This document shows positions 30,366-49,142 of a DNA stretch of 64,000 nt, in pieces (the first letter of the stretch is position 1; each line of letters begins with the position of its first letter). Both the position numbers and the translations under genes were made by a program. The notes under the pieces are model-generated. The model was not told where the DNA came from. It did not search any database and saw only the letters and a program-made list of their open reading frames with translations. The stretch comes from Candidatus Omnitrophica bacterium UBA6249. GTDB lineage: Bacteria; Omnitrophota; Gorgyraeia; Gygaellales; Profunditerraquicolaceae. Where the stretch lies: the NCBI GenBank assembly GCA_002441305.1, contig DJVT01000009.1:345210-409209 (forward strand), in the 5' to 3' direction.

Positions 30366-31625
30366 CTAACAGATAATGCGCATCTCGCCGTGCCTGTTGA
30401 GCTGCTCGAAAAGGCTGCGCGGCATCCTGAGGCTTATGCTTACCCCCTCCTCGAGATAGTCTATTTTGTCTATCCTGGCCTGGCGGTAAAGCATATCCAC
30501 AAGCTTCATCGAGGAATGCGGTACGAGGACTTTTAAATCCGCGATCATTCCCGAAAAATACTCCCCCATGCGCCTGATCAGCCCTTCCATATTCTCGCCG
30601 GTCTTTGCGGACAGCACCACAGCTTCGGCAAACTCGTTTTTTTGCAGTTCCAACCAGCTCCTGTCGCAAACCAGGTCGACTTTATTCAAAGCTGTAAGGA
30701 AAGGCTTGTCGGACAGTCCAAGCTCATCCAGCACTTCGCGTACCGATTCTTCGTGTTCATGCACGCGCTGGTCGGATATATCAAGCACATAGATGAGTAG
30801 ATCCGCTTCCTTCACCTCCTCCAGTGTGGCCTTGAAGGCCTCGATCAGATGATGCGGAAGCTCATGCAGGAACCCAACGGTATCTGAAATAATAACATCC
30901 TGTCCGTTTTCCAGCCGCAGGGCTTTCGAGAGCGGGTCCAGCGTGGTAAAGAGTTTTTCCGATACCGGCTGAGACGATCCCGTCAAGCGGTTAAGCAAGG
31001 TGGATTTTCCCGCAGAGGTATAACCGATAAGCGCCACTAAGGGCAGGCAGCTATTCTTCCTTCTCTTATTGATCGTACGCCGGTGCGACCTGAATGATTC
31101 CAGGTCGCTCTTTAATTTCCCTATCCTCTTCCTGACCTGGCGCCGGTCGACCTCGAGTTTCGTTTCTCCCGGCCCTCTAGTCCCTATGCCGCCGCCTAAA
31201 CGCGAAAGCATAATCCCTTTGCCTGTCAGGCGGGGAAGAAGATACTCCAGTAAAGCGAGCTCCACCTGGGTCTTTCCCTCGGGGCTTTTGGCCCTCTTGC
31301 TGAAAATATCAAGGATCAGCTGGGTGCGGTCTATGGTCTTCCTACCTATGACGCCCTCCAGATTACGCTGCTGGGTGCCGGAAAGGTCATGGCTGAAGAT
31401 CACGGTATCGGCATTCTCATCCGCGGATAAGAGGGCGATCTCCTCCACCTTGCCTCTTCCTACGAGATAAGCAGCGGACGGCTTCTCGCATACGCAAACA
31501 AGATGCCCGGCAATCCCTACACCGGCCGAGGAAACAAGCTCCTCAAGTTCGGAAGAAACATCCTCCATGCGCCAGCGCCGCCTTTCGCTCTTTATTTCTA
31601 TACTTACCAAAACAGCTCTTTCCAT
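30366..31625 (-). CDS. hflX: GTPase HflX
   Basis: 419 aa with the HflX N-terminal domain and the G motifs GYTSAGKST, DTVGF and NKVD. Confidence 0.9.
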   Translation of the reverse strand: MERAVLVSIEIKSERRRWRMEDVSSELEELVSSAGVGIAGHLVCVCEKPSAAYLVGRGKVEEIALLSADENADTVIFSHDLSGTQQRNLEGVIGRKTIDRTQLILDIFSKRAKSPEGKTQVELALLEYLLPRLTGKGIMLSRLGGGIGTRGPGETKLEVDRRQVRKRIGKLKSDLESFRSHRRTINKRRKNSCLPLVALIGYTSAGKSTLLNRLTGSSQPVSEKLFTTLDPLSKALRLENGQDVIISDTVGFLHELPHHLIEAFKATLEEVKEADLLIYVLDISDQRVHEHEESVREVLDELGLSDKPFLTALNKVDLVCDRSWLELQKNEFAEAVVLSAKTGENMEGLIRRMGEYFSGMIADLKVLVPHSSMKLVDMLYRQARIDKIDYLEEGVSISLRMPRSLFEQLNRHGEMRIIC

Positions 31626-31626
31626 A

Positions 31627-32544
31627 TCAATCCCCGTCTTTCAAAAGAGAATAAATCCTTCCGGCGATACGCTCCGGTGCATCCCTCCTGCCGGCTTCAA
31701 CCCAAATAATGCGCTTATCCTTTCTGAACCAAGTAAGCTGGCGCTTGGCGTAACGCCTGCTGTTCCTTTTGATAAGCTCCTTGGCGCTGTCCAAAGAAAT
31801 TTCGCCCTTAAAATAACTTTTAAGCTCCCGCAACCCTATGGCATAACGCGCGGTCCTGCTCAGCCTGCGCCCAAGCAGACTCTTGGCCTCTTTTAACAGG
31901 CCAAGCGAAAACATCTTCTCCACTCTCGCGTCTATCCTGGCATACAGGTCATTACGATCCATACTCAAACAAAATATGCGCACGGTATGCGTATCCGCCA
32001 GCCCGTTGCGCCTCTTTTGCAGGGCGGATATGGGATGGCCGGTGCTCTCGTACACCTCGAGAGCGCGCACGATACGTTTTTTATCGTGGAGATGTATCTT
32101 CTTAGAGGCCTCCGGGTCAACCTTGGCCAGGCGCCTGGCCAAGATTCCGCCGTCCAATGCCTCCAGGCTTGCGCGCAGCCCGGGCAGGGTTTCCCGTTCC
32201 TCGAATATGCCATCGACAAGAGAAGAAAGATAAAGGCCGGTTCCGCCGGTAAAAAGCGGTGTCCTCCCCCTGCTGAAAATTTCCTTCACGGACTTCAAGG
32301 CCAGACGCCTGTATGCGGAAACGTTCCACTCCTTTTGCGGGCTGACTACTCCCAGCAAATGATGTTTAACCGATTTCAACAAAGCCCTGCGCGGGGCTGA
32401 GGTAATTATATTCATATCCTTGTATATCTGCATTGAATCGCAGGATATGATTTCTCCTCCTATCTTCTTCGCCAATTTCACCGAGACTTCGGTCTTTCCG
32501 ATCCCGGTCGGACCCACCAAGAATACCACCATGTCACAAGGCAC
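31627..32544 (-). CDS. miaA: tRNA dimethylallyltransferase MiaA
   Basis: 305 aa with the P-loop GPTGIGKT and DSMQIYKDMNIITSAP. Confidence 0.9.
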   Translation of the reverse strand: MPCDMVVFLVGPTGIGKTEVSVKLAKKIGGEIISCDSMQIYKDMNIITSAPRRALLKSVKHHLLGVVSPQKEWNVSAYRRLALKSVKEIFSRGRTPLFTGGTGLYLSSLVDGIFEERETLPGLRASLEALDGGILARRLAKVDPEASKKIHLHDKKRIVRALEVYESTGHPISALQKRRNGLADTHTVRIFCLSMDRNDLYARIDARVEKMFSLGLLKEAKSLLGRRLSRTARYAIGLRELKSYFKGEISLDSAKELIKRNSRRYAKRQLTWFRKDKRIIWVEAGRRDAPERIAGRIYSLLKDGD

Positions 32545-34390
32545 GTTCCGCCCCTCTCAGCCTGCTTTCGATAAAATCCTTCTCCCTGCGCTGCCATTTG
32601 CGCACCTTATTTTGAGCCTCGATCAGCATCTTGCCGGACATTTCGGAATCTCCGGATTTCTCATAAGCGTAAGCCATCTCGAGGTAAAGCCCAGGGTCGT
32701 CGGGGACATAACGCAGGCCCTGCCGCAAGATATCCAGCGCATCGTCCCAGCGCCCAGACCTGTTATACATATACCCGAGATTGTAATAAGCGTCCGGATA
32801 AAAAGGTGCCTCTTCCAGCACGCGTTTAAATAACCGCTCCGCCTTTTCATATTCGCCCAGCTCATAATATACGGCGGCAAGGGAAAACAAAACCCTGGGG
32901 TTTTCCGGATGCAGGTTTAATGCCGAATTAAGCTCCTTCAGTGCTCCGTCGTAATCTTTGTCCTTTGCAAAATTTACCCCGGAAAGGAAATGGCCCCGAA
33001 AGGAAGCCTCTTGGGAGGATGCCGAGGCATTACGCAAAGCAAGGTGCCTGGAGAACAAGAGCGCAAGTGCGCACAGAAGTGCGATAACGGCAGGTTTGAA
33101 ATATTTCTTTTGTTTTAAACCCTCCCAGAATACGCAAACCGCCAATCCGGAAAATACCGACAAAAAAGGTACCATCATTATCCGGTTTTTGGAGATAACA
33201 AAGAAAATCACCGTGTTCAGGGAAAACCCGACGACTGCCAGGCATAACAGCGTCTTCAGGCGCGATCCCGGGGCAAAAAACAATCCTGCCAGGGCAAGCG
33301 GCATAATTAACGCCAAATCGCTCATCTGCCCCCCAGGCATACCCCCTCCCCCGGAAACGATTTTATACTCCGGGTCGCATATATTCTCCTCCGGGGAAAA
33401 AGTAAACAAGATTTTCTTTAAAAGCAGGCGTCCGTACTTGCAGGGACTCTTTGAAATAAAAGACCATGATTTTCCCAGCCAATAACTGCATACCTCAAAA
33501 ACAGAAGGGTCCTTCCCCTCGTAGAGCCCGGCTTCTCCGCGGGCCTCCCTGTATAAAGATTCCTGGTTTGGAGTGAAATGTTTCGGGAGATAATAAGAAC
33601 CTGCAGACTCGGGATTATTCCCCAGGTAAAAATTAAAACCGGCATTCCGGGAAAAGAACGCCGGTTTTCCGTCGCTCGCAAAATTCATCCCGGTGAGCAA
33701 AGCGGCAACCAGGAGAAAACCCGCGCAAAAAGAAAAAAACATTTTTAGCCTGCCGGGTAATCCTGGCGTAGCCCCGCTTAACGCCCAAAACAACCCCAAA
33801 AAACCAAAAACCAGAATGCCCCCCTGCAGGGAAACGCATATGCCGAGAAACAACCCGCCCCAGAAAAACAGGCGCAAAGAACCGTTTTTTCCCAGCAGTA
33901 ATATAAAGAGAAAAAACAGCGAATTCAAGAAAATGGCGGGCGAAGTATAAATAAGCAGGTTATCGTAAAATACGAATAGCCCGTAGAAAACACATAATAA
34001 ACCGGCCGCAAACCCTGCTATCCTGCTGCCGCATAATCTACCGATAAAATAAACCAGCACGCAATTCAACGCCCCGAGGATATTTTGCGCCATATAGGCC
34101 AAGGCCAGGGAACCATGCCCCAGCTTGAGGAAAAAGGCCAGAATGTAAGAATAAAGCGGCCAGCTTATAAATATCTTCCAGCTCAAGAAATCGCCGCTGT
34201 TTATATCCAGGGCGCGTAAATAGTAAAAATAACTGTCGGAATAAGGCAGGAGCGGGTATGCCTGGGTTAAAGAGTACTGGCGCAGGTACAAAAGCCGGAA
34301 CGCCATGGCAAGCGAAAACAGTATGAGAATAAACGCCGAATCTTTTCTGGAGACGGATATTTTAGAATCTGGGAATAGGCGATGAGGCAT
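32534..34390 (-). CDS. Polytopic membrane glycosyltransferase-like protein (GT39/ArnT-like) with C-terminal TPR repeats
   Basis: 618 aa. About 11 hydrophobic helices are followed by TPR-type repeats (AVYYELGEYEKAERLF..., AYYNLGYMYNRSGRWDDA...). Confidence 0.5.
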   Translation of the reverse strand: MPHRLFPDSKISVSRKDSAFILILFSLAMAFRLLYLRQYSLTQAYPLLPYSDSYFYYLRALDINSGDFLSWKIFISWPLYSYILAFFLKLGHGSLALAYMAQNILGALNCVLVYFIGRLCGSRIAGFAAGLLCVFYGLFVFYDNLLIYTSPAIFLNSLFFLFILLLGKNGSLRLFFWGGLFLGICVSLQGGILVFGFLGLFWALSGATPGLPGRLKMFFSFCAGFLLVAALLTGMNFASDGKPAFFSRNAGFNFYLGNNPESAGSYYLPKHFTPNQESLYREARGEAGLYEGKDPSVFEVCSYWLGKSWSFISKSPCKYGRLLLKKILFTFSPEENICDPEYKIVSGGGGMPGGQMSDLALIMPLALAGLFFAPGSRLKTLLCLAVVGFSLNTVIFFVISKNRIMMVPFLSVFSGLAVCVFWEGLKQKKYFKPAVIALLCALALLFSRHLALRNASASSQEASFRGHFLSGVNFAKDKDYDGALKELNSALNLHPENPRVLFSLAAVYYELGEYEKAERLFKRVLEEAPFYPDAYYNLGYMYNRSGRWDDALDILRQGLRYVPDDPGLYLEMAYAYEKSGDSEMSGKMLIEAQNKVRKWQRREKDFIESRLRGAERAL

Positions 34391-34394
34391 AACT

Positions 34395-35162
34395 TTAAGG
34401 AATGACCTTTGTAGGGTGCCCCTGCCGGGAAAGCCTCTTGCCTATGCTCGAAGCCTGCTCACGCGAACTAAATTTCCCCACCCTTACCCTGTAACCTCCG
34501 GAAGAGCTCTCTACGTAAGCCGGGTACCCTGCAGCGAAAAGCTTGTTTTTCAATTTAAGGGCGTTTTTCTTGTTGGCGAAAAAACCTACCTGGACGGCAA
34601 AACTTTCCGGCTCATTCTGCAAAATCCCCGCCGCAGAAAAGGCGTCTTTAGAATATCTTAAATCGAGGCTCAAGGGGAAATCCCTCTTCAGCTTAAAAAG
34701 GTACTCTTCAGAACGCTCCTTCTCCAGCCCCTTGTTAGCCAAACGGCTCAAACGGAATAATACGCTTGCCTTGAGGCTTGTCCCTGGGTAATCCTCCAGC
34801 AGTTTCTTATACGCATATTCGGATTTACGCAGGCGGCCCTCGAGTAAATCCACATCCGCCAGCGAGAATAAGGCGCGCTCCCTATTCCTGCTGATTGGAT
34901 TGTTCGCTACCCGGCGGAGGCATTCTTCCGCCTTGCCCAGGTTGCCTGCCTTCATATAGCTTAATCCTAAAAGGTAATTTAAATCGTCGGCGCCCTGGAT
35001 ATTGAAATACCCCAGCTGCGCCTCCGCCTCGCTTATCACCCTATGGTAGTTCCCTTTCAGAAAATAAATTTTCACGCTGTCCAAACCGGCAGCCATGAGA
35101 AAAGAAGGAAAAGACAATACGCATAAAATAAATATGCCTGTTCTTGCCATCAGCTTGTGCAT
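34395..35162 (-). CDS. TPR plus SPOR domain protein (peptidoglycan-binding)
   Basis: 255 aa with a signal peptide, TPR repeats and the C-terminal SPOR segment FAVQVGFFANKKNALKLKNKL...YRVRVGKFSSREQA. Confidence 0.7.
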   Translation of the reverse strand: MHKLMARTGIFILCVLSFPSFLMAAGLDSVKIYFLKGNYHRVISEAEAQLGYFNIQGADDLNYLLGLSYMKAGNLGKAEECLRRVANNPISRNRERALFSLADVDLLEGRLRKSEYAYKKLLEDYPGTSLKASVLFRLSRLANKGLEKERSEEYLFKLKRDFPLSLDLRYSKDAFSAAGILQNEPESFAVQVGFFANKKNALKLKNKLFAAGYPAYVESSSGGYRVRVGKFSSREQASSIGKRLSRQGHPTKVIP

Positions 35163-36349
35163 TACCGGCCCCTCAATCTATTGGAAATCTCTCTCTGTAA
35201 ATCAAGAATGCGTTTATGCCTGTCTTCCTTTTCTTCCTGGGTAAGGGAATCGGCCAGTTTAGAAGACTGCGTATTCGGCCTGGGGGAATATTTGAATATA
35301 TATGAAGCGTTAAACCCGACGTTCTTGAGCAAGGCACAGGTCTCCTGGAAATCCCCCTCTGTTTCTGTGGGGAAACCTACGATAATATCCGTAGTCAATG
35401 TACCCCCTGTAACGATTCTACGATAAGAGTCGGTTAAAGCCAAGTACTCTTTTACGGAGTACCCGCGGTTCATAAGCTTGAGTATCCTGTCCGAACCGGA
35501 TTGCACCGGAAGATGCAGGGATTTCTCCAGCTTCTCCAGGTCCCTGATGGCGCGGAAAAATTCTTCATTGGCGTCTTTAGGGTGGGAGGTGAAAAAATTA
35601 AAACTCTCCAGCCCTTCCAGCGCGTTTACCTCTTCAAGAAGCCCCCTGAAACCGGAATCCCCCTGGCAATAAGCGTTTACATTCTGCCCCAGGAGGGTAA
35701 TCCTGGATATACCCGAACCCAATGCCCGGAGGATCTCCTCTATAACGCTGGACTGCGCGCGGTGGCGCAATGGCCCGCGCACATACGGAACAATACAATA
35801 CGAACAAAAATTTGAACAGCCCTCGGAAATAACCACGTAAGCATGACTCTTGTCCGCGCGGAAAGAAGTATGATAGACCTCATCCGGCCTCTCCTTGGCC
35901 GCAGTCTCCCAGACCTTCCGCTGGAATAACCCCTCATCCTGGCTCTGTCCTAAAGCAAGAAGCCGGTCAAGAATCGAGGGTATTTTGCCGATATCCTGCG
36001 GCCCCACCACAAAAGAAATCGCCGGGTCGCGCTGGAACGCCTTGTCTTGATAATTCTGCGCCATGCACCCGGCCAACCCGATAATCTTACTGCCTTTATA
36101 ACTCCCGATCAGGCTCCAGACACGGTCCTCGGCATGCTTGCGTACGGAGCAAGTATTAAAGATCACGACATCGGCGTCTTGATCGGAATCACAGACCCGG
36201 TAACCGGCACCCTGGAGAAGCCCGCAGATAATCTCGGAATCCCGGACATTCATCTGGCATCCGAAGGTACGCAAAAGCACACGTAGCTTCTTCGGGCTTT
36301 TGCCTCCGGAATCGCCTGTATTGTCGTCTTTTCGTTCGTTTTCAACCAT
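35162..36349 (-). CDS. miaB: tRNA-i6A37 methylthiotransferase MiaB. The 5' end (36278-36349) is supplied by the integrated element.
   Basis: 395 aa with the UPF0004 domain LRTFGCQMN, the radical-SAM CSNFCSYC motif and a TRAM C-terminus. The first 24 codons lie to the element side of the 20-bp att core and overlap the integrase 3' end in another frame. Confidence 0.85.
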   Translation of the reverse strand: MVENERKDDNTGDSGGKSPKKLRVLLRTFGCQMNVRDSEIICGLLQGAGYRVCDSDQDADVVIFNTCSVRKHAEDRVWSLIGSYKGSKIIGLAGCMAQNYQDKAFQRDPAISFVVGPQDIGKIPSILDRLLALGQSQDEGLFQRKVWETAAKERPDEVYHTSFRADKSHAYVVISEGCSNFCSYCIVPYVRGPLRHRAQSSVIEEILRALGSGISRITLLGQNVNAYCQGDSGFRGLLEEVNALEGLESFNFFTSHPKDANEEFFRAIRDLEKLEKSLHLPVQSGSDRILKLMNRGYSVKEYLALTDSYRRIVTGGTLTTDIIVGFPTETEGDFQETCALLKNVGFNASYIFKYSPRPNTQSSKLADSLTQEEKEDRHKRILDLQREISNRLRGR

Positions 36350-37935
36350 TTCATCCCCTCTTCATAGCAAGTCTTCCAAGGCTCATTCAACTCAAACTTC
36401 ACGATTTCCTGATTCTGGATAGTAATCGACTTAAAGACAATCCGCATGAACGTCTTTATAAGGTAGTCCAATTGGTGATTGTCGCTTTCGGGCGTACTGC
36501 GCAACCTTAAAAGGAAATCCTGCGTCGCTTTCACCAAATTGACGGAATTGCGCTTGTCCAGAATCTTAAGATGAATGGCCTTGATATCCTGCTTTAGTTT
36601 TTTCTCCTCATTACTTAAAAGCTCGGCTCTGTCCTTATAAAGCCCCATATTTATTTTGTCTTCTGAAAATAATTCGTATATAGCCCTTTGCTTCTCCACG
36701 TTCTTTTTAAGAAGCGCTTCCTTCTCCTCCAACTGCTCCATATATACCCGCTCCGGCTCAGAAGCGTTAAGCCGAATCATGTCGCCTAATTCTTCCAGCA
36801 CGTGAAGATTTTTTCTAATAACTTCAACGATATCCCAGACCTGCTTATTGATAGCATCAGCAGTCACGGATTTATTGTTGCACTTAATATACCGAATCCC
36901 TCTAGACGAACATCTATACCACGGACGCCTCATTTTGGTGCGGTGATTAACGATATGCGTCATCCCGCGATAATTACCGCCGCATTCATTGCATTTTAAT
37001 ATACCGGAAAGATGATAAACATTATTCCTGAATCTAACTATGCCATTAGTGCGGTTTCGCTTGAGAAGCGTGGAAGCCTCGTCAAACTCCCTTTGCGAAA
37101 TAATCGGCTCGTGCGTATTCGGGACCTCGATGATCTTGGAAGGATCATTCTTGATATAGCAATATCCCTTTCCCTCGCCATTTTTAGTCTTGATCTTTGT
37201 ATCGTAACGCCGCTTATTCCAGACCAGCATTCCCAAATACACTTTATTTTTAAGGATATCCGAGATGAATTTAGTATAAAACTTCCCGCCCTGCCGCGAA
37301 GGGATACCAAGCATGTAATAATGCCCGGCAATCTGCGAAGTGCTCTTGCCATTTATATACATCGAGAAAATTTCTTTGACGATTTTCGCTTCTTCAGGGT
37401 GGACTTCCAGTTTCTTGGCTTCCTTATTATAACGATAGCCATACGGCGCGTAACGCGCTCCCTGCCAATGCCCCCGCTTAACACCTACAACCATACCCGG
37501 AAAAACGCGCTCAACTAAACGATTACGCTCAAATTCCGCGCAACTGCCAAGCATTTGAATCGCCATTTTGCCCGCGCTCGATGTAGTATCAAACGGCTCA
37601 GTCGCTGATTTATAGCCAACACCCAAAGAATCAATCTCCTCAAGCAATCCTAACAGATCCTTGAGCCGACGACTTAAGCGATCTTGTTTATACACCAAGA
37701 CCAAATCAAACTGCTTATTGCGGGCATCGAAGAGAAGCCTCTGTAATGCCGGTCTATCCATATTGCCGCCGGAATAGCCGTCATCCATATAAACATCCCG
37801 GCCCGACATACTGCAAAAAACATCCCAGCCGAAGTTCTTCGCATATTGCAAAAGATACGTTCTCTGCACCTCCAGCGAAAATCCTTCGCGAGCTTGATCC
37901 TCTGTGCTAACTCTTGTGTATAACGCTACCCTCAT
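36250..37935 (-). CDS. Large serine recombinase (integrase 1)
   Basis: 561 aa with the resolvase catalytic domain ALYTRVSTEDQ, a recombinase domain, the zinc ribbon CNECGGNY...CSSRGIRYIKC and a coiled coil. Its last codons cross the att core. Confidence 0.9.
   Translation of the reverse strand: MRVALYTRVSTEDQAREGFSLEVQRTYLLQYAKNFGWDVFCSMSGRDVYMDDGYSGGNMDRPALQRLLFDARNKQFDLVLVYKQDRLSRRLKDLLGLLEEIDSLGVGYKSATEPFDTTSSAGKMAIQMLGSCAEFERNRLVERVFPGMVVGVKRGHWQGARYAPYGYRYNKEAKKLEVHPEEAKIVKEIFSMYINGKSTSQIAGHYYMLGIPSRQGGKFYTKFISDILKNKVYLGMLVWNKRRYDTKIKTKNGEGKGYCYIKNDPSKIIEVPNTHEPIISQREFDEASTLLKRNRTNGIVRFRNNVYHLSGILKCNECGGNYRGMTHIVNHRTKMRRPWYRCSSRGIRYIKCNNKSVTADAINKQVWDIVEVIRKNLHVLEELGDMIRLNASEPERVYMEQLEEKEALLKKNVEKQRAIYELFSEDKINMGLYKDRAELLSNEEKKLKQDIKAIHLKILDKRNSVNLVKATQDFLLRLRSTPESDNHQLDYLIKTFMRIVFKSITIQNQEIVKFELNEPWKTCYEEGMKWLKTNEKTTIQAIPEAKARRSYVCFCVPSDAR
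36258..36277. repeat. att core copy 1 (CATCCGAAGGTACGCAAAAG), the junction between miaB and element 1
   Basis: Identical 20-mer to 54295-54314. It lies inside miaB codons LLRTFGC and inside the last codons of integrase 1. Confidence 0.8.
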
Positions 37936-38113
37936 TAGTATCCTTTAGTGTCTCCCGCCATTCTTTAATCTTGGCGATACACTCGTCCGTAAACACGGGC
38001 CAGTCTTTGTAGTCGCGCTTGGGCTTAACCCAACCCTTGCGGATCCAATTGATCATGGTCTGCCGGTGAACACCCAGCTTTTTTGCCGTCTCTGTCATGG
38101 TGTAAGTTTTCAT
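37907..38113 (-). CDS. Excisionase-type (MerR-like, HTH_17) DNA-binding protein, a candidate recombination directionality factor
   Basis: MKTYTMTETAKKLGVHRQTMINWIRKGW...; 51 of 58 aligned residues are identical to the element 2 copy. Its 3' end overlaps the integrase start by 29 nt. Confidence 0.65.
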   Translation of the reverse strand: MKTYTMTETAKKLGVHRQTMINWIRKGWVKPKRDYKDWPVFTDECIAKIKEWRETLKDTNEGSVIHKS

Positions 38114-38139
38114 AATTGGCACCCTCTAAGATTAGTGCC

Positions 38140-38168
38140 CAGTATACCGTATTATACAACCCTATACA
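38140..38168 (-). promoter_or_regulatory. Promoter candidate for xis-int (conserved in both elements)
   Basis: The minus strand reads TTGTAT (38168-38163), a 17-nt spacer, then TATACT (38145-38140), with an internal TATAAT. The same block recurs near 56705-56735 in element 2. Confidence 0.4.
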
Positions 38169-38365
38169 AGGGTTTTCTTCTCCGCGTCATACGAGGACAG
38201 GAACATTTTTGACAACAACTCAATGCCTTCAAAAAAGGATTTACGCGCCTCCTGAATCTCAATGCTGGATAGGCCGCGGCCTTTTAGCTTTATCTCTAAA
38301 GCATCCCAGCCCCTAAGGCTAACCGCCTGATCATTATTTGTGCGTACATCCTTGCTCATTTTCAC
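38162..38365 (-). CDS. Conserved small element protein, unknown function
   Basis: 67 aa. SLRGWDALEIKLKGRGLSSIEIQEARKSFFEGIELLSKMF aligns with the element 2 ORF at 56734-56928. Confidence 0.55.
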   Translation of the reverse strand: MKMSKDVRTNNDQAVSLRGWDALEIKLKGRGLSSIEIQEARKSFFEGIELLSKMFLSSYDAEKKTLV

Positions 38366-38373
38366 CGCTACCC

Positions 38374-38456
38374 ATTAGGACATTAGGACATTTTTCGTGT
38401 CGTATGATGTCCGGTTTCACTGACATACTGACATAACTCGTGTCAGTGAATGTCAG
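38374..38456. repeat. Short-word arrays upstream of the small ORF (operator/iteron-like)
   Basis: ATTAGGAC occurs twice in tandem (38374-38391). CTGACAT occurs twice (38420, 38428), followed by inverted TGTCAG twice (38441, 38451). Confidence 0.6.
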
Positions 38457-38600
38457 TCAAAACACCCCTCAAAACCATCGAAATACCCCAAAATTGACAC
38501 TTTTTCCGCAAAGAATGCCTGTTTTGAGCCTTCCTGACCACATTTTGACGCTCTCCGGATAACCCCATATGACATGACATCACTTTTTCAAAATTTTAGA

Positions 38601-38712
38601 TCACTGACAAACTGCGCCTCGCCCGACCCTCACCCGACACCGGCTGCCAAGGACCCGTAAACAAAATGCGTGCGGAGGAGGGCGGAAGGTGTCGCCCTCT
38701 GCCAGACGCATT
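38601..38712. repeat. Conserved GC-rich motif copy 1 plus adjacent hairpin
   Basis: TCACTGACA..GCGCCTCGCCCGACCCTC..AAGGACCC (38601-38656), with an invariant 18-mer at 38614-38631. A hairpin AATGCGT...ACGCATT follows at 38665-38712. Confidence 0.8.
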
Positions 38713-38781
38713 TATCTGGCAAAACTTTCGCGATGGAAGAAGTTAACAAGAACATCGATCCGGTTCCTCCGCATTAGATTG

Positions 38782-39465
38782 TTACTCAGCAACCAACTCT
38801 ACCTGCTCCACTGGCTTTGCGGGCTCAGGCCGATATTTTTTCATAAGGTTATTAATCTCCTGCTCGAGGTCGAAATGCGATACCCAGTGATCCCTGACAC
38901 GGATATCCTCCTCGATATCTGCCGTTGTCGGCCTGCGAAGCTCGGCGATACCCTTTTCTTTCTCAGCATGAAAAATACTGTGCGGCTCTGTTCCTAAACT
39001 GGGGCTAAACGCGGGGTAATCTTCCAAATGCCGTCGGGTAGTCTCTGGATGACCGTAGATAGCAAATGCTAAGGCAAACAACCGGCCCTTCGCCTTCCAC
39101 AGATCGAGGATCAACGTCTCCTTCTCTCTGTTCATGGCTTTACGGTCTTCGATGAGCCTTTTCATCTCTTCGTCCCGCTTCTCCGTCAACGCTTCCTCCA
39201 TTTTCGTCTTGAGTTTAGCGAGGCTCTCGGCAACGACATCGAGATTGATATTGCATTCCTCCAACGCCAAATCCGCTAGCTTCACAGCCTCGGGATTAAT
39301 CCTCTCGCCGCACATAACCCGGCTTCTGATTTCTTTTGCTTTCTCTTTAGCTTCAGTTTTTTCCTGCTCGCAGAGCTTCTGCTTTTCTTCAAGCGCCACA
39401 ATCTGCTCGGCGATCTCTTCCGGCGTGCTTTTGCCCTTTAACACGTTTAAAAAATTCAGTTTCAT
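38782..39465 (-). CDS. Coiled-coil hypothetical protein (variable slot of element 1)
   Basis: 227 aa, charged and helical. I recognise no motif. It occupies the position held by the Nu1-like gene in element 2. Confidence 0.5.
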   Translation of the reverse strand: MKLNFLNVLKGKSTPEEIAEQIVALEEKQKLCEQEKTEAKEKAKEIRSRVMCGERINPEAVKLADLALEECNINLDVVAESLAKLKTKMEEALTEKRDEEMKRLIEDRKAMNREKETLILDLWKAKGRLFALAFAIYGHPETTRRHLEDYPAFSPSLGTEPHSIFHAEKEKGIAELRRPTTADIEEDIRVRDHWVSHFDLEQEINNLMKKYRPEPAKPVEQVELVAE

Positions 39466-39559
39466 TTTTCGTTCCTCCTGTATTTGTTGATTTGAATTAC
39501 TATTCTTCTGCCTTGGTTTTTACGTTTGCCTACATCTTTCACCTCCCCTTTTTCTACCC

Positions 39560-39772
39560 TCTGAACGTTGTGAACATTGACTACTCTTATTTTTCTAACT
39601 GCCTCTAATGACCCCCTACAAGGGGCTTTCCCTCTTTCTCTTTTCTTTTTTAGAAAAGGAAAGAAACGACATTCACAATATTCATGAATCCCACATCCTC
39701 TTGTAGATTATGAGGATAATCCGTGACCAAAGCTGTGAACGTAGCCCGTCCACAGTCACAATGGTCACACCT
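39560..39772. repeat. Iteron-like word pairs and an AT-rich tract downstream of primase 1 (replication origin candidate)
   Basis: TGAAC occurs at 39562 and 39571, TTCA(C/T) words at 39671 and 39680, and GTCACA at 39755 and 39764. Each pair is 9 bp apart. An A/T-rich imperfect palindrome lies at 39630-39665. Confidence 0.4.
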
Positions 39773-42136
39773 TTAATACGGCCTTGGATCGTCTTCATCA
39801 CAAAAATCCTTTCCTTGTTCACCTTCATTCACGCCTTCGTTCACACTGCCTTTAAAAAGCGAATTACCCTTTATCCTGCGTAAGATAACCAGCTTCCTGC
39901 CGGTACCGGCTTCACGCTTTTCCGGACGTAAAATATCAATGCCCACACTGCGCATAACCGGAGCGATGCGCATAAGCTCTGAACCAAGTGCCCGGGCGTT
40001 GCCGGGTAGCGTCTTATCAAAACCGGTTTCCGGCTTAATGCTCTCAAGCAGTGTGGTCGCAGAACCCGCCCACTCGCCTCCGTTTGACTCCACAAGATAG
40101 ACCAACTTTTGCGCGAATGTGCTCTCTTCTGCGGTGTCCTCCCATTTATGATCAACCGATTGCTGATACCGCTTAAAAAATTCCTCCCGGGAGAATCCCA
40201 AATGCTGTGACAACGCCGCACCCCACTGCGCGAAATCCGACATCCTAAAACGCTCATGCCCGGACACACCGTCAATAACTGCCATTGCGTTTGAAATTGC
40301 CGAAAAGAAACCGCCGAGAATACCGGGAAGCGAAGCCCGCCATTCGTAAGCGATGACTTTCTCCGGCCTTGTCTCTTTTAAGATTGGTATATCGAAGATA
40401 ACTGAACGGTCTAATAGATCCGGACGGCATATAGCACTGCCGATACCGTTTAAAACGAAACATCGGCGATAGGTCCTGATGAATTCCTCATCATTGGTGT
40501 AAAGCGATCGCTTCATATCTCCCTCGCCTGTTACTGCCCGGCATAAAAAATCACTGAACCACTCAGACACGCGAGAAAAATTGTCGAAATTATTCAACCA
40601 GTGTTTATCCGCGATCATCTGCGCCTGCTCTAAATCCTTAGGCACAGAAATGGACATCACCTTGGAAGGATCGCACAGGCTTTTAATCATCCGGGAGTTG
40701 TTAGACTTTCCTGTTCCCTGCTCGCCTATCTGCACTGGTATGACATGAGGAATATCGGGAATAAAGAAAGTCGCTACCGCCGTCATGAATAGACAAGCGT
40801 CATCTTTATTGATATTGCAAAACTCCAAAAGCTTTTTAGGATCAGAGCCCTTGACCGGAAAAACCTGCTCTGCCTGATGGGGGTATCGCTTGAATATTGG
40901 AGGCAGGAAAACAACTTCCCATCCATCTTTAGTAATAATGACCCCGCGCCAGTCTTGAGTGGTCAGGTCATAATAAATAGCCCCGTTATGCCAACCGACA
41001 CGGTTATATAGCTCAACCTGCCTTCCGCCTTCGCACTTCGCCTCAATCTGAACTTTCGCCTGCTTTATAGCTTCGCTCCCGGGCGGATGGCCGAAGTCCT
41101 GCCGGTAACGCAGAGCGCAGTAATTCCTGAAGCGGGAACTGCTTGTCTGGCAAACCTCAAGATGTTTATCAAACGGAAGAACAACGTAAGGATTACCTTG
41201 TTGGTCGCGCAGATATTCGCTAACCGTTTCTTCACAGTCACGGGTGATAATTTCGCCTTGGGTAAGTTTCTTCTGCTTCGGAGATGTTGACGCCTCAAAT
41301 ACATTTTCGGTGTCTTGGACGGCCTTCTGAATAACGCTTTGCCCGTAAGTCTTGCCGTCACCAAAATGTTTCTCATCCCACTTCGGCCGCATAAGCCCCG
41401 ACTGCCGGAACAACGCATCCATCTGCCCGGCGTCTTTGCTTGTCCAAAACGCCAGCTTGTTGCACAACGCCAGATCCGCCTCACTTTGAGAGGGATAATC
41501 GGTCTGCCACTGGCCCGAATAAAGCCGCTGAAACCTCTCCGCGTCTTTACTCTTGGCGATCAAGGTAAGAATGTCGTCTGCGGGCCCTTTATCCACAAAC
41601 CGGCTGAATATATCTTTAAGCGCATCAGTGCACTCGTTAAGCTCAGCCGGATAATTTTCAAGGCGGTTGCCGGTAACGGTAAAGAATCGGCCATTGGTAT
41701 AAATCTCCAAGCCGATCTTGGAAATTTTGCAGGCCCGGGCGATCTCGCCTTTACAAAGGATATGAATACCTGTGCCGCTTGGCGAATATTCGGAATATGA
41801 ATTAATCGCCTTGAGAATCTCAACCGCATACGGCGCGATTGATCCGTCTTTGACGCAGTGGTCAATATCCACGCCCACATACGGCGGCTGAAACATAAAG
41901 CCAATGCCCGCGTAGTTACGCTGAATCGCCAAATCTAAAGCCATTTCAAAATCAGTCCATGTTGCAGGATCGTTGCTTTTCGCAGGCGCGCCGGTCATAA
42001 CATTCATCGGAATCTTGTCAACACGGCCATTGTTCTCTCTGGTGACATAACCCACCCACGCCTTTTGAGACCTAATCTCGGCGGGAATAATTGAAGGCAT
42101 CTTGTTAAAATCTATCATTGCTGTTTGCATCGCCAC
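39773..42136 (-). CDS. Prim-Pol (AEP) primase fused to a DUF3987-like P-loop helicase
   Basis: 787 aa with the N-terminal AEP motifs VGVDIDHC and SPSGTGIHIL, and the PriCT-like block YPSQSEADLALCNKLAFWT...LFRQSGLMRPKW. The Walker A motif is GEQGTGKS. Confidence 0.8.
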   Translation of the reverse strand: MAMQTAMIDFNKMPSIIPAEIRSQKAWVGYVTRENNGRVDKIPMNVMTGAPAKSNDPATWTDFEMALDLAIQRNYAGIGFMFQPPYVGVDIDHCVKDGSIAPYAVEILKAINSYSEYSPSGTGIHILCKGEIARACKISKIGLEIYTNGRFFTVTGNRLENYPAELNECTDALKDIFSRFVDKGPADDILTLIAKSKDAERFQRLYSGQWQTDYPSQSEADLALCNKLAFWTSKDAGQMDALFRQSGLMRPKWDEKHFGDGKTYGQSVIQKAVQDTENVFEASTSPKQKKLTQGEIITRDCEETVSEYLRDQQGNPYVVLPFDKHLEVCQTSSSRFRNYCALRYRQDFGHPPGSEAIKQAKVQIEAKCEGGRQVELYNRVGWHNGAIYYDLTTQDWRGVIITKDGWEVVFLPPIFKRYPHQAEQVFPVKGSDPKKLLEFCNINKDDACLFMTAVATFFIPDIPHVIPVQIGEQGTGKSNNSRMIKSLCDPSKVMSISVPKDLEQAQMIADKHWLNNFDNFSRVSEWFSDFLCRAVTGEGDMKRSLYTNDEEFIRTYRRCFVLNGIGSAICRPDLLDRSVIFDIPILKETRPEKVIAYEWRASLPGILGGFFSAISNAMAVIDGVSGHERFRMSDFAQWGAALSQHLGFSREEFFKRYQQSVDHKWEDTAEESTFAQKLVYLVESNGGEWAGSATTLLESIKPETGFDKTLPGNARALGSELMRIAPVMRSVGIDILRPEKREAGTGRKLVILRRIKGNSLFKGSVNEGVNEGEQGKDFCDEDDPRPY

Positions 42137-42351
42137 GTCCGTATTTGGTTAAGTATTGCCCGGAGTTTACTGTCGTTATATGGCACGCGACAGGTATAAA
42201 GCCACATCTCGACCTCTGAGGCGCGAAACATAACTTCCCCGCTTGGTAGCCTAAAATGCGGGATAAGCCAATTCTTCACCAGATAGTCAATCTGGCTCCG
42301 CCTTAGATTGAGATGAGTCATAAGCCGTTCAACAGTCAATAAGCCTTCCAT
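42115..42351 (-). CDS. AlpA/excisionase-family HTH regulator
   Basis: 78 aa. LLTVERLMTHLNLRRSQIDYLVKNWLIPHFRLPSGEVMFRASEVEMWL matches the HTH_17 pattern. It overlaps the primase start by 22 nt. Confidence 0.6.
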   Translation of the reverse strand: MEGLLTVERLMTHLNLRRSQIDYLVKNWLIPHFRLPSGEVMFRASEVEMWLYTCRVPYNDSKLRAILNQIRTWRCKQQ

Positions 42352-42460
42352 GTGATATCCTCCTCGCGAATTTCTTTTCTACTTGGAGTTTATCACTGGA
42401 AAAATCATGCCTTCCCAGCTTTACCCAAATTTGCTCAAATTTTTACATTGATTGTGCGTA

Positions 42461-42488
42461 AAAAAGAAAAAACGCCCTAAGGCGTTTT
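42461..42488 (-). terminator. Rho-independent terminator after the 203-aa gene
   Basis: The minus strand has the stem AAAACGCC / GGCGTTTT with a 4-nt loop, followed by a T-run. Confidence 0.7.
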
Positions 42489-42522
42489 AGTGGGAATTAC
42501 TGCTATTTTTGTTTTGGAAATA

Positions 42523-43134
42523 CTACTGAGAGGAGTCTTGATCGTCAGCGGTAGGAAGTTCTTCGGCGGCGATCTGCCATTTGCTTCCGATCTTGCGGGC
42601 TAATAACTGATTATTCTCAAGCCAGTTTTGCATGGTCTTACGGCTGATATTAAAAACCTTGGCCCAATGCGTGATTGGATACGGGCTTGACCAGCCGCTA
42701 CGCGGGATTAATTTCGGTCTTATTCTAAACTCAGAAGACATTATCCTGTTTCTTGCACCCATAATACGGTGCATCATCCCAAGTTGCATATCTTTCGTCT
42801 TTTCACACCATTCATTGTAGCCTCCGGGAAGCCACGTTGGAAGCTCAGGGATAACCGGTGTTTCATTCGGCCCGAATAGATATTCTATAATGGGGATAGC
42901 CGCTTGATTGGCTTCCTGATAAAGATTTCCCAAGTCAGGCTTTTTTACTTTATGCTTCTTTAGCGTTTTCTCATACTTGTGGAATACATCATCTTTTGTC
43001 AGCCAATCATAGGAATCGATTGATGAAAGACCGAGCCTTTCAATAGTCAACACCCACTCACTGGAGGCCTTCTCATACGCTGACCACTTTTTCCAGAACT
43101 CCGTAACGCAATCGAGTTTATTCTTTTTATCCAC
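42523..43134 (-). CDS. Conserved 203-aa element protein with C-terminal excisionase-type HTH
   Basis: It aligns along its whole length with 60633-61244 of element 2. The C-terminus reads ITHWAKVFNISRKTMQNWLENNQLLARKIGSKWQI. Confidence 0.7.
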   Translation of the reverse strand: MDKKNKLDCVTEFWKKWSAYEKASSEWVLTIERLGLSSIDSYDWLTKDDVFHKYEKTLKKHKVKKPDLGNLYQEANQAAIPIIEYLFGPNETPVIPELPTWLPGGYNEWCEKTKDMQLGMMHRIMGARNRIMSSEFRIRPKLIPRSGWSSPYPITHWAKVFNISRKTMQNWLENNQLLARKIGSKWQIAAEELPTADDQDSSQ

Positions 43135-43179
43135 AACGGATTATCCTAATCATTGTTAAAATGACCAACATCGCTTCAT

Positions 43180-43395
43180 TTAATCAATACGTAAAGTGCT
43201 GTCCTTAAAAATATTTTTTTCTTCATTCTGGTTCAGTTTTCTAAAAACAAATAGGTGTTCATGCATGATTAAAAGGAAATCCTTGTCCTGCGCGCTCCAG
43301 TATCTGGTAGTCGAACAATTGTGTTGTACTTTTATAACATCTTCTTTGAGTAGGAATCCGGCTTTTAAGAAGCGTCGCATAACAGAAAATGCCAA
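43180..43395 (-). CDS. Hypothetical 71-aa ORF (weak)
   Basis: An ORF with no motif in AT-rich DNA. An equally long antisense ORF overlaps it. Confidence 0.25.
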   Translation of the reverse strand: MAFSVMRRFLKAGFLLKEDVIKVQHNCSTTRYWSAQDKDFLLIMHEHLFVFRKLNQNEEKNIFKDSTLRID

Positions 43396-43462
43396 CGGAA
43401 CATAATGCCTGCGTCGGCGAGTATCTCCGATGAGGATGGCGCAATATTGAAGGCCAATTTAC

Positions 43463-43681
43463 TCAGTCAGCTTTTTCTATATCTTTTTCCTCCTCTGAAA
43501 CACGATTATCTTCACCGCATTGAATAGACAGGACAAGCGGCCCCTTTGCAAAATTCATACAAATTACACCCTGCGAGTCAACAACACCGTTTATATCGGT
43601 ATCTTCCGATAACTGCCAGCCACTATTTTTTAATGTGGCTAATATTTTCTTCGCCTCTTGAATATGATTTTTATCGAGCAT
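43463..43681 (-). CDS. Small hypothetical protein translationally coupled to the DpnI-like gene
   Basis: 72 aa from the internal ATG (MLDKNHIQEAKKILATLKNSGWQL...). It overlaps the DpnI-like stop by 11 nt. Confidence 0.4.
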   Translation of the reverse strand: MLDKNHIQEAKKILATLKNSGWQLSEDTDINGVVDSQGVICMNFAKGPLVLSIQCGEDNRVSEEEKDIEKAD

Positions 43682-44468: not shown

Positions 44469-44622
44469 ATTGGATAGCCGTAGCCAGTCTCCTTAAAACC
44501 GAATAAATATGATCACAATCCTCACCGGCTTCTAGCCAGTTTTTCTTTTCATCATCCCAGCAATAATCCAAGACACGCCTAATATCATCTTCCACCTGCT
44601 CATTCATTATTATTGATCGCAT
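44452..44622 (-). CDS. Possible 56-aa ORF overlapping the DpnI-like start (below the ORF-track cutoff)
   Basis: My own translation is MRSIIMNEQVEDDIRRVLDYCWDDEKKNWLEAGEDCDHIYSVLRRLATAIQYEPRS. Its stop lies 17 nt inside the DpnI-like gene. Confidence 0.3.
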   Translation of the reverse strand: MRSIIMNEQVEDDIRRVLDYCWDDEKKNWLEAGEDCDHIYSVLRRLATAIQYEPRS

Positions 44623-44634
44623 AGGCCTCGTTGA

Positions 44635-47328: not shown

Positions 47329-47345
47329 TTTTACCCCCTCCCTTT

Positions 47346-49140: not shown

Positions 49141-49142
49141 GA

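What the first reader, a model, noticed from the sequence alone, without database searches (positions are those of the whole stretch)
36250..36349. The element supplies a replacement N-terminus and ribosome-binding site for MiaB, giving a 100-nt dual-coding overlap with the integrase 3' end
The first 24 MiaB codons (MVENERKDDNTGDSGGKSPKKLRV) lie on the element side of the att core. They are preceded by GAGGGGATGAA-ATG, a plausible Shine-Dalgarno sequence and spacing. The same 100 nt encode the integrase 1 C-terminus (...EEGMKWLKTNEKTTIQAIPEAKARRSYVCFCVPSDAR) in another frame on the same strand. So integration does not simply disrupt miaB. The gene is rebuilt as a chimera that would be expressed from element-derived signals, probably by read-through from the integrase gene. 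This would couple tRNA ms2i6A modification to element transcription.
Basis: partly seen in the sequence, partly recalled or inferred. Interest (0 to 1): 0.65.

Follow-up and report, generated by a model that had tools for sequence, protein, structure and literature searches.

The report
Mobile element rebuilds its target gene
An 18-kb mobile element inserted into the start of a tRNA-modification-type gene brings its own ribosome-binding site, start codon and 30 replacement codons, so the gene stays readable; this trick is known for other elements, but here a different recombinase family does it and the replacement codons overlap the end of the recombinase gene itself.

Summary
On the minus strand, a large serine recombinase gene (36250-37935) and a MiaB-family gene (35162-36349) overlap by 100 nt in two frames, and GAGGGG lies 5 nt before the miaB ATG.

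The central reading holds, with corrections:
- The exchange point is the TG of the Cys codon in the GCQMN motif (36259-36258). The element therefore supplies codons 1-30, not 24.
- The window holds two tandem elements. E1 is 18,037 bp. E2 starts at 54296 and runs off the window. E2 carries the same kind of ribosome-binding site, ATG and leader.
- In 21 related loci from Omnitrophota, Elusimicrobia and Margulisiibacteriota (integrase identity 40-100%), the same architecture recurs.
- Ten metagenomic far-end junctions show displaced native miaB starts (for example MNKKIFLRTFG) fused to the E1 right end.
- Synonymous resampling indicates that both reading frames are kept open by selection.
- In 20 of 22 loci the integrase ends at the TGA inside the host's ATG-AAY.

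Transcription by read-through from the integrase gene, and the proposed coupling to ms2i6A, remain untested. The protein lacks a TRAM domain and scores just below the MiaB equivalog cut-off.

The kind is known (dusA islands, SXT in prfC, Mx8 attP inside int). This is a new variant.

The parts
36250..36349 (-). Dual-coding overlap: miaB codons 1-33 and the last 33 integrase codons plus the stop, in frames offset by one base
   Evidence: both frames are maintained across lineages
36355..36360 (-). Shine-Dalgarno-like GAGGGG, 5 nt upstream of the miaB ATG; in the integrase frame it encodes part of YEEGMK
   Evidence: a purine-rich motif is present upstream of the leader start in all 22 related junctions; host genes have similar motifs
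36260..36349 (-). Element-encoded MiaB leader, codons 1-30 (MVENERKDDNTGDSGGKSPKKLRVLLRTFG). The last roughly 9 residues replace beta-strand 1 of the N-terminal domain
   Evidence: 100% nucleotide identity to L001 up to 'ggatgcca', then 30-60%; the PDB 7MJV alignment starts at residue 22
36258..36259 (-). Inferred crossover dinucleotide TG (first two bases of the Cys31 codon): junction between the E1 left arm and the host
   Evidence: Far-end junctions keep the host's GGN (all four bases seen) plus T, then the element's GGCCG; the base after TG is host Y at one junction and element G at the other
35162..36349 (-). Chimeric MiaB/RimO-family radical-SAM methylthiotransferase gene (395 aa, no TRAM domain)
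36250..37935 (-). Large serine recombinase Int1 (561 aa in the integrated state). Its TGA stop (36252-36250) lies in host DNA inside ATG-AAT (Met-Asn of GCQMN)
37907..38122 (-). 71-aa HTH_17/MerR-like gene that overlaps the integrase start; a possible directionality factor or regulator (inferred)
36260..54296 (-). Element E1, 18,037 bp counting one copy of TG. Genes: integrase, HTH, NrS-1-type primase-polymerase, DpnI, YhcG nuclease, LexA-like, Rnk, two-component system, PhoU, Na+/H+ exchanger
54295..54314 (-). Second copy of the 20-nt core: junction of the E2 left arm with the E1 right arm (attP-like hybrid), with TG at 54296-54295
54276..54410 (-). E2 leader ORF, MSNKERNDAKKGEEKHRGNRAEGEGSPKGKRILLRTFG|WPLSTL*. 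It is preceded by AAGGAG (54420-54415) and cut short here because E1 lies downstream
54230..56110 (-). Large serine recombinase Int2 (626 aa, 79% identical to Int1). Its last 21 codons are read from the E1 right end (GRCLPYRHSMADLAEALIGAD*), which shows the attP-type tail
52715..54175 (-). First E1 cargo gene (Na+/H+ exchanger with TrkA_C), 120 nt downstream of the far-end junction. In a single insertion it would sit behind the displaced native miaB promoter (inferred)
30366..35162 (-). Tightly packed host genes downstream of miaB: SPOR/TPR, TPR membrane protein, miaA (IPPT) and hflX. Gaps and overlaps are 11 nt or less, so their transcription probably also depends on what enters from the element
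   Evidence: same synteny in element-free loci L093 and L094

Best explanation
The 100 nt are the integrase-proximal junction of an 18-kb integrative element (E1). E1 is moved by a large serine recombinase and is inserted at the TG of the Cys codon in the conserved GCQMN motif, near the 5' end of a MiaB-family methylthiotransferase gene.

The element's attachment site lies inside the 3' end of its own integrase gene. That same arm carries, in the adjacent frame, a Shine-Dalgarno sequence, an ATG, a hydrophilic leader, and a mimic of the first beta-strand (K-K-L-R-V-L-L-R-T-F-G). Integration removes the native promoter, ribosome-binding site and first 10 or so codons. It joins the element's 30 codons in frame to Cys31 onward and so rebuilds a complete ORF.

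The integrase ORF then runs 8 nt beyond the crossover dinucleotide into host DNA. It stops at the TGA that every MiaB gene offers inside ATG-AAY. In the excised or attP form the integrase instead reads into the element's other end and is about 19 residues longer.

Shown: the junction anatomy, the crossover position, the displaced native 5' remnants, and the conservation of both frames, the start codon and the ribosome-binding site across a wide family.

Inferred: that the chimera is translated and active, and that its mRNA starts inside the element.
For: 1. Two copies of the core and two tandem elements, each with a ribosome-binding site, an ATG and a leader in frame with LLRTFG.

2. L001 has an integrase 99.8% identical to Int1, yet its MiaB is only 43% identical. 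Nucleotide identity is 100% up to 'ggatgcca' and then collapses. The same leader is fused to TRAM-less and to canonical MiaB genes.

3. All 21 related genome loci with downstream DNA have a MiaB-family gene overlapping the integrase 3' end. Each has a purine-rich motif and an ATG (TTG in two loci) 9-36 codons before GCQMN.

4. Ten of eleven metagenomic copies of the E1 right end are fused to different native miaB starts, such as MKKIFLITYG|, MLKVFLQTYG|, MNKKIFLRTFG| and VQKKVFIRTFG|.

5. Element-free loci start MKKVFIRTFGCQMN after a 97-160-nt intergenic spacer.

6. The miaB frame being open is not a by-product of the integrase peptide: per-locus probability 0.01-0.60, product about 1e-11. 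The integrase residue over the ATG alternates between W and C, which share only TG. After insertions in E2 and L005, a second EEGVK[W/C] module sits next to the junction.

7. Four of four checked orthologues that gene callers had truncated to 'MNVRDSE' have this integrase ending 4 nt into the call. In the three whose leader contains an ATG (L092, L140, L141) a conserved ribosome-binding site and ATG lie upstream. L139 has only a GTG-start leader.

8. The structure-based alignment (PDB 7MJV) starts at residue 22, so the leader lies outside the fold and the replaced segment is strand 1.
Against: - There are no expression data of any kind.
- No sigma-70-like promoter (9 or more of 12 matches) was found in the last 1.2 kb of the integrase gene on the coding strand, so the source of miaB mRNA is unknown.
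- The leaders are poorly conserved in sequence and length (10-37 aa). Selection is therefore visible only on openness, on the start signals and on the strand-1 mimic.
- The far end of the array, with this host's own native remnant, lies outside the window. Displacement of the native start is shown only in related loci.
- The lineages used in the resampling products were grouped by eye and are not formally independent.
Confidence: 0.8

Rival explanations
1. Integration inactivates the gene. The in-frame ATG and open frame are incidental, and any protein made starts at an internal codon (for example Met33 in QMN) and is non-functional.
For: Gene callers do start 31 of 120 orthologues at the QMN methionine. 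There is no direct evidence of expression. Some tRNA-modification genes are dispensable in other bacteria (for dusA, stated in PMC4482086).
Against: A start at Met33 would remove the first cluster cysteine. The truncated calls are explained by callers avoiding a long same-strand overlap (my inference). The start codon, the ribosome-binding site and the open frame are kept in 22 of 22 junctions, down to 40% integrase identity. The chance of that, given the integrase peptide, is about 1e-11. The strand-1 mimic is also conserved.
Confidence: 0.07
2. The chimera is expressed, but from a dedicated outward-facing promoter inside the integrase 3' region, as shown for the dusA element IMEVchUSA3. It is not expressed by read-through of the integrase mRNA. 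miaB expression would then be constitutive and uncoupled from element activity.
For: The precedent was tested with lacZ fusions (PMC8409611). In prophage relatives (L095) the integrase is expected to be weakly expressed in the integrated state, while miaB-miaA-hflX need expression (inference). A weak candidate, TTGTCT-17-CAGAAT, lies at about 36440-36412; one relative (L008) has TATAAT at that position.
Against: No candidate reaches 9 of 12 matches. The candidate hexamers overlap conserved integrase codons, so their conservation is uninformative. Promoter consensus in Omnitrophota is unknown.
Confidence: 0.4
3. The overlap exists mainly for the integrase. Placing attP inside int gives two integrase isoforms: long when excised, short when integrated and ending at a host stop codon. 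As in Mx8, these would differ in activity, and the MiaB leader would be a secondary adaptation.
For: In 20 of 22 loci the integrase frame is open to exactly the host TGA. Its openness is unlikely given the MiaB peptide (product about 3e-6). Two different right ends extend the ORF by 17-19 residues beyond the point where the host TGA would stop it: GRCLPYRHSMADLAEALIGAD in E1 and WRQCYIPILQLLGDVHMKA in L096. The Mx8 precedent is described in PMC6070905.
Against: The tail after CYEEG is not conserved as protein beyond what the shared nucleotides impose. It tolerates large insertions. Only two right ends are available. This rival does not exclude the main explanation, because both frames appear to be selected.
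Confidence: 0.3
4. The leader is native host sequence and the recombinase gene merely sits upstream. There is no insertion into miaB.
For: Some native N-termini look similar (MSDKEKKKNKVFLRTFGC in element-free L094).
Against: The identical leader and upstream DNA are joined to MiaB genes only 43-56% identical. Native starts are found at the element's other end. A second core copy lies 18 kb away. The resemblance is better explained by the leader having descended from a captured native 5' end.
Confidence: 0.01

Closest known systems
dusA-specific genomic islands and prophages (DAI integrases; IMEVchUSA3)
   Same: These elements insert in the 5' end of a tRNA-modification gene. [quoted passage not shown] The native 5' end is left at the far boundary. 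For IMEVchUSA3, a new promoter and continued expression were shown with lacZ fusions (PMC4482086; PMC8409611).
   Different: Those elements use tyrosine recombinases, occur in Proteobacteria and target dusA. No overlap of the replacement codons with the integrase ORF is described in the passages I read. Here the recombinase is a large serine recombinase, the target is the MiaB/MtaB family in Omnitrophota, Elusimicrobia and Margulisiibacteriota, and there is a conserved two-frame overlap.
SXT/R391 integrative conjugative elements in prfC
   Same: [quoted passage not shown]
   Different: The recombinase is a tyrosine integrase and the elements are conjugative. No dual coding with int is mentioned in that summary.
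Myxophage Mx8 (attP inside int)
   Same: The attachment site lies in the integrase coding sequence, so integration gives the integrase a new 3' end (PMC6070905).
   Different: Mx8 uses a tyrosine integrase. In the account I read it is not described as rebuilding a host gene. Here the new integrase end is only two residues plus a host-supplied stop.
tRNA/tmRNA-gene islands that regenerate their target
   Same: The island carries a copy of the displaced gene segment, so the target is restored and the displaced fragment marks the other end (Islander, PMC4383910, abstract).
   Different: In those cases an RNA gene is restored, usually at its 3' part (my own knowledge), so no translation signals are needed.
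Large serine integrases of phages that insert into protein genes (A118 in comK, SPbeta in spsM, Bxb1 in groEL1)
   Same: They belong to the same recombinase class, have a 2-bp crossover, and target sites within genes. These examples come from my own knowledge and were not checked here.
   Different: In those cases the target gene is split and inactive until excision. Here it is rebuilt.

Membership tests
Large serine recombinase (integrase) | N-terminal resolvase catalytic domain, then recombinase domain, then zinc-ribbon domain | tested here: met
   Pfam: Resolvase residues 3-157 (E 8e-34), Recombinase 180-294 (E 2e-22), Zn_ribbon_recom 309-368 (E 5e-11). The Ser in YTRVSTEDQ was read directly from the sequence.
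Large serine recombinase (integrase) | Recombination at a 2-bp central dinucleotide shared by attP and attB | tested here: inconclusive
   Comparison of junctions confines the exchange to TG. This fits the expected mechanism, but no biochemical mapping was done.
Integrative elements that rebuild the 5' end of their target gene (dusA-island / SXT-prfC type) | Site-specific insertion inside the 5' coding region of a conserved gene | tested here: met
   The same codon (Cys of GCQMN) is used in 21 genome loci and 10 metagenomic far-end junctions.
Integrative elements that rebuild the 5' end of their target gene (dusA-island / SXT-prfC type) | Element-borne in-frame replacement 5' coding sequence with translation signals | tested here: met
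Integrative elements that rebuild the 5' end of their target gene (dusA-island / SXT-prfC type) | Displaced native 5' end at the opposite boundary | tested here: met
   Met in related loci L081-L085 and L087-L091. It cannot be seen in the window because the far end of E2 lies beyond base 64000.
Integrative elements that rebuild the 5' end of their target gene (dusA-island / SXT-prfC type) | Element-borne promoter that keeps the target expressed | not testable with these tools
   The consensus scan found nothing convincing. This needs 5'-RACE or a reporter fusion.
dusA-associated integrase (DAI) family | Tyrosine recombinase specific for dusA | tested here: not met
   The recombinase is a serine recombinase and the target is a methylthiotransferase gene. 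It works like the DAI elements but is not a member.
MiaB (tRNA i6A37 methylthiotransferase) | UPF0004 N-terminal domain with three Cys, and a radical-SAM CxxxCxxC motif | tested here: met
   Pfam UPF0004 residues 23-116 and Radical_SAM 172-340. GCQMN, NTCSVR, GCMAQ and CSNFCSYC are all present in the translation.
MiaB (tRNA i6A37 methylthiotransferase) | C-terminal TRAM domain | tested here: not met
   There is no TRAM hit. The alignments to 7MJV and to TIGR01574 both stop at about position 371-390 of 437-457. The whole clade of 360-400-aa orthologues lacks it.
MiaB (tRNA i6A37 methylthiotransferase) | Score above the NCBIfam equivalog cut-off (TIGR01574, 355.3 bits) | tested here: not met
   The score is 341.5 bits. 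The protein passes only the MiaB/RimO subfamily model TIGR00089 (372 bits against a cut-off of 251). Conserved linkage to miaA supports a MiaB-like role.
attP-inside-int arrangement (Mx8 type) | Integrase ORF crosses the attachment site, so its 3' end differs between the excised and integrated states | tested here: met
   Int1 ends in host DNA. Int2 reads across the hybrid junction into the E1 right end. The attP-form contig L096 gives a 575-aa integrase.

The most novel reading that the evidence does not exclude
The two-frame junction is a state sensor and a promoter swap.

- When the element is integrated, its integrase is cut short by a stop codon that only the host's GCQMN codons provide. 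When it is excised, the integrase carries a roughly 19-residue tail read from the other end of the element. These two isoforms would bias recombination direction.
- The displaced native miaB promoter would drive the element's distal cargo. In turn, the miaB-miaA-hflX cluster would depend on transcription and ribosome traffic coming out of the integrase gene.
- Because the rebuilt junction mimics the native target, it would stay a usable attachment site. That would explain the tandem array in the window and the occupancy of about 30% of related miaB genes.
Probability: 0.2. Interest if true: 0.72.

Novelty: new variant of a known kind. Interest (0 to 1): 0.55.

Why it matters
It extends the strategy of inserting into a gene's 5' end and bringing a replacement from tyrosine-recombinase islands of Proteobacteria to a large-serine-recombinase family in poorly studied phyla (Omnitrophota, Elusimicrobia, Margulisiibacteriota).

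The family appears common. About 36 of the 120 closest MiaB clusters look occupied: 31 calls truncated at the QMN methionine plus 5 with element-type leaders. All four of the truncated calls that I checked are occupied.

There are practical consequences:
- Gene callers systematically truncate the rebuilt gene at the QMN methionine. Annotation of these genes, and any N-terminal comparison built on it, is biased.
- The conserved module offers a natural, compact example of a serine-integrase attachment site that must also encode two proteins and a ribosome-binding site.
- The module defines a well-delimited attB (the GCQMN codons with a TG centre) for a set of integrases spanning 40-100% identity. 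These could be tested as genome-engineering tools.

If expression does depend on integrase transcription, a tRNA-modification and heat-shock-linked gene cluster would be wired to the state of a mobile element.

Tried and rejected
- I looked for a third core copy and for this host's own displaced miaB start in the window. Only two copies exist, and the last ORF of E2 runs off the end at base 64000.
- I looked for far ends within 8 kb upstream of the integrases in related loci. None were found, except inverted copies in L021 and L022.
- A sigma-70 promoter and terminator scan around both junctions gave nothing above shuffled expectation on the coding strand near the junctions.
- I aligned the last 230 nt of 13 integrase genes to look for a conserved promoter. 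Conservation there cannot be separated from the coding constraint.
- I did not attempt codon-based dN/dS for the overlap, because the leaders are too short and too rich in indels to align. I used synonymous-codon resampling of each frame instead.
- Full-text searches for miaB with serine recombinase or attB, and for Omnitrophota with serine recombinase, found no description of this family in the held library.
- I considered that the integrase frame stays open purely because the leader is T-poor. I rejected this as a full explanation because resampling gives only 0.12-0.59 per locus.
- I considered that the tandem array is an assembly chimera. This is unlikely, because the two integrases are only 79% identical and the shared exact repeat is only 20 nt.
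Full report
**What is in the sequence**

All relevant genes are on the minus strand. A 395-aa ORF (35162-36349) has the UPF0004 and radical-SAM domains of the MiaB/RimO methylthiotransferases. A 561-aa ORF (36250-37935) has the three domains of a large serine recombinase. The two share 36250-36349 in frames offset by one base. GAGGGG (36360-36355) lies 5 nt before the ATG at 36349. Similar motifs precede 27 of 37 long ORFs in the window.

**Where the element ends**

The 20-mer CTTTTGCGTACCTTCGGATG occurs twice, at 36258-36277 and 54295-54314, with none expected by chance. The second copy lies in the 3' end of a second serine recombinase, Int2 (54230-56110, 626 aa). Int2 is 79% identical to Int1 up to the motif PWK.CY(E/D)E and diverges after it. 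Just upstream of the second copy sits AAGGAG-TAAA-ATG, followed by an ORF in frame with LLRTFG: MSNKERNDAKKGEEKHRGNRAEGEGSPKGKRILLRTFG. That ORF then runs into unrelated DNA and stops (WPLSTL*). The window therefore holds two tandem elements. E1 runs from the miaB junction to 54296. E2 runs from there past base 64000, because its last ORF has no upstream stop within the window.

E1 carries an NrS-1-type primase-polymerase, DpnI, a YhcG nuclease, a LexA-like protein, an Rnk/GreA-like protein, a two-component system, PhoU and a Na+/H+ exchanger. It has no virion genes.

**Comparison with orthologues**

The host is a Candidatus Omnitrophota bacterium, judged from the source names of the closest hits. 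Most of the 120 closest orthologues start M.KK(V/I)F(I/L)RTFGCQMN. Five exceptions carry element-type leaders:
- P0029 and P0105 are only 67% and 63% identical over the body, yet they have exactly the window's first 24 residues.
- P0003 and P0002 have close variants of that leader.
- P0001 has a leader like that of E2.

A further 31 of the 120 were called from the Met of QMN. I checked four of these (P0073, P0097, P0062, P0112). In each, a serine recombinase ORF ends 4 nt into the called gene. In three of them an uncalled ribosome-binding site, ATG and leader lie upstream, and the fourth (L139) has only a GTG-start leader. I infer that gene callers avoid the long same-strand overlap. Two element-free loci (P0111, P0023) have a 97-160-nt spacer and a short native start.

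**Related elements**

A scan of one genome per species, using the alignment of Int1 and Int2, returned 24 relatives at 40-100% identity. They come from Omnitrophota, Elusimicrobia and Margulisiibacteriota. Every one with enough downstream DNA has a MiaB-family gene overlapping the recombinase 3' end. Each also has a purine-rich motif and an ATG (TTG in L015 and L016) 9-36 codons before GCQMN, in the miaB frame.

L001 has an integrase 99.8% identical to Int1, but its MiaB is only 43% identical. Its nucleotide identity to the window is 100% through 'ggatgcca' and then falls to 30-60%. The same leader is joined to TRAM-containing genes that pass the MiaB equivalog cut-off (L001, L002) and to TRAM-less ones (window, L004, L092). 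In L021 the target passes the MtaB cut-off. More distant recombinases (37% identity or less) have no such neighbour.

**The other end, and the crossover**

An exact-match scan of metagenomes with 24 nt of the E1 right end gave 11 loci. In ten of them, that identical right end is joined to different upstream sequences. Each upstream sequence ends in a native miaB start, for example:
- aggaggatttttATG...MLKVFLQTYG|
- MKKIFLITYG|
- MNKKIFLRTFG|
- VQKKVFIRTFG|
- MTEDKKTILIQTFG|

Each is followed by WPLSTL*. The eleventh locus (L086) joins the left arm of another element to the E1 right end, as in the window.

The host-derived side keeps its own GGN Gly codon (all four third bases occur) plus T. 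The base after TG is the host's C or T at the integrase-side junction and the element's G at the far junction. The exchange is therefore confined to TG, the first two bases of the Cys codon (window 36259-36258 and 54296-54295). That fits the 2-bp crossover of serine recombinases, which is established knowledge. It follows that E1 is 18,037 bp and that the element supplies codons 1-30, not 24. The 20-nt 'core' is similarity between the left arms of E1 and E2.

**Are the two frames selected?**

I held the MiaB leader peptide fixed and resampled synonymous codons. The integrase frame then stays open with a probability of 0.12-0.59 per locus. Holding the integrase tail peptide fixed, the miaB frame stays open with a probability of 0.01-0.60. 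Both frames are open in essentially every lineage. My products over about 12 lineages are roughly 3e-6 and 1e-11. The lineages were grouped by eye, so these numbers are indicative only.

Three further points favour selection on the miaB start signals:
- The integrase residue over the ATG is W or C, which share only TG.
- The integrase motif (Y)EEG.K doubles as the ribosome-binding site.
- In E2 and L005 an insertion separates the body of the integrase from the junction, yet a second EEGVK[W/C] module sits next to the junction.

On the integrase side, 20 of 22 ORFs end at exactly the same place: the TGA inside the host's ATG-AAY. In the attP-type arrangement the ORF continues into the element's other end. 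It reads GRCLPYRHSMADLAEALIGAD* for the E1 right end (read in Int2) and ...SDARWRQCYIPILQLLGDVHMKA* in the 17.3-kb IMG/VR contig L096. By joining the two arms of E1, I infer a 580-aa excised form of Int1, against 561 aa when integrated.

**What the replaced segment is**

The alignment to the solved Bacteroides uniformis MiaB (7MJV) begins at residue 22 (LRVLLRTFGCQMNV against KKLFIETYGCQMNV). Residues 1-21 are therefore an extension outside the fold. The element-encoded KLRVLLRTFG replaces the first strand leading into the first cluster cysteine, which is itself host-encoded. Native N-termini such as MSDKEKKKNKVFLRTFGC (element-free L094) resemble the element leaders. This suggests that the leader descends from a captured native 5' end (inference).

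**What remains open**

- The source of miaB mRNA is unknown. No terminator separates the integrase gene from miaB. No sigma-70-like promoter reaching 9 of 12 matches lies in the last 1.2 kb of the integrase gene, and Omnitrophota promoters are uncharacterised. Read-through and an internal promoter are about equally plausible. The dusA precedent had an element-borne promoter.
- miaB heads a tight cluster (SPOR/TPR, TPR membrane protein, miaA, hflX) that is conserved in element-free relatives. Whatever transcribes miaB probably also feeds these genes.
- The protein has no TRAM domain and scores 341.5 against the 355.3 MiaB equivalog cut-off. The link to ms2i6A is therefore probable, supported by linkage to miaA, but not shown.

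**Comparison with what is known**

Three known systems come closest:
- Genomic islands with tyrosine integrases insert in the 5' end of dusA. They supply a new 5' end that includes a replacement first strand (PMC4482086). [quoted passage not shown]
- SXT does the same at prfC (cited).
- Mx8 has attP inside int, so integration changes the integrase 3' end (PMC6070905).

The present case combines both features in a serine-recombinase family with a different target, and it adds a conserved two-frame overlap and a host-supplied stop codon. I found no description of it in the searchable library. I therefore class it as a new variant of a known kind, of moderate interest.

Noticed in passing
L022:7513-7620 versus L022:9518-9625; also L021:75-119 versus about 3957-4001: In an Elusimicrobiales genome and one Omnitrophota genome, the whole leader module (ribosome-binding site, ATG and leader up to ..TFG plus TG) is repeated in inverted orientation. 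In L022 the copy lies about 450 nt upstream of the integrase gene and encloses a roughly 2.1-kb segment that holds only the integrase; in L021 it lies about 2.2 kb upstream and encloses about 3.9 kb. This looks like an invertible segment or a minimal element rather than a normal insertion.
   Followed up: partly
window 35162-36349 (minus strand): This 'MiaB' and its whole Omnitrophota clade (360-400 aa) lack the TRAM RNA-binding domain and fall just below the NCBIfam MiaB equivalog cut-off. They are nevertheless always linked to a SPOR/TPR gene, miaA and hflX. Other Omnitrophota genomes in the set carry a canonical TRAM-containing MiaB.
   Followed up: partly
L001:2283-3707, L002:9587-10951, L021:3937-5226: Near-identical elements use different methylthiotransferase targets: TRAM-less MiaB-like genes, canonical MiaB genes and, for a distant relative, MtaB. 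All are hit at the homologous Cys codon. Target choice therefore follows the conserved (T/L)(F/Y/L)GC motif rather than one gene.
   Followed up: partly
window 36260-54296 and 54296-64000: Two different elements of the same family sit in tandem at one site. The rebuilt junction mimics the native target, which may let it serve again as an attachment site.
   Followed up: no
window 43671-45768; L092:1-2669; L095:254-7818: The same integrase-and-leader module is attached to very different cargo. E1 has DpnI and a YhcG nuclease. A relative on a 590-kb contig (L092) has ThsB-type TIR genes. Another relative (L095) has phage-type genes (weak T7 gp13/gp14-like matches, small terminase, Rep O).
   Followed up: no
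window 52715-54175 and the far-end junctions in L081-L091: The first E1 cargo gene (Na+/H+ exchanger) starts 120 nt after the far junction, with no predicted terminator in between. In single insertions it would sit directly behind the displaced native miaB promoter and a 16-residue remnant ORF (M..FG|WPLSTL*).
   Followed up: no
P0031, P0038, P0040 and 28 other hits: Public gene calls start 31 of the 120 closest orthologues at the Met of GCQMN, which removes the first cluster cysteine. All four that I checked are artefacts of the overlap with the integrase. This is a systematic annotation error for genes occupied by these elements.
   Followed up: partly
window about 36440-36449 and about 54281-54290 (minus strand): The 10-mer CTACCTTATA occurs both in the integrase 3' region (the DYLIKT codons, also conserved in E2) and in the E1 right end just after the crossover, within GTCTACCTTATAGAC. 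This could be chance or a protein-binding site.
   Followed up: no
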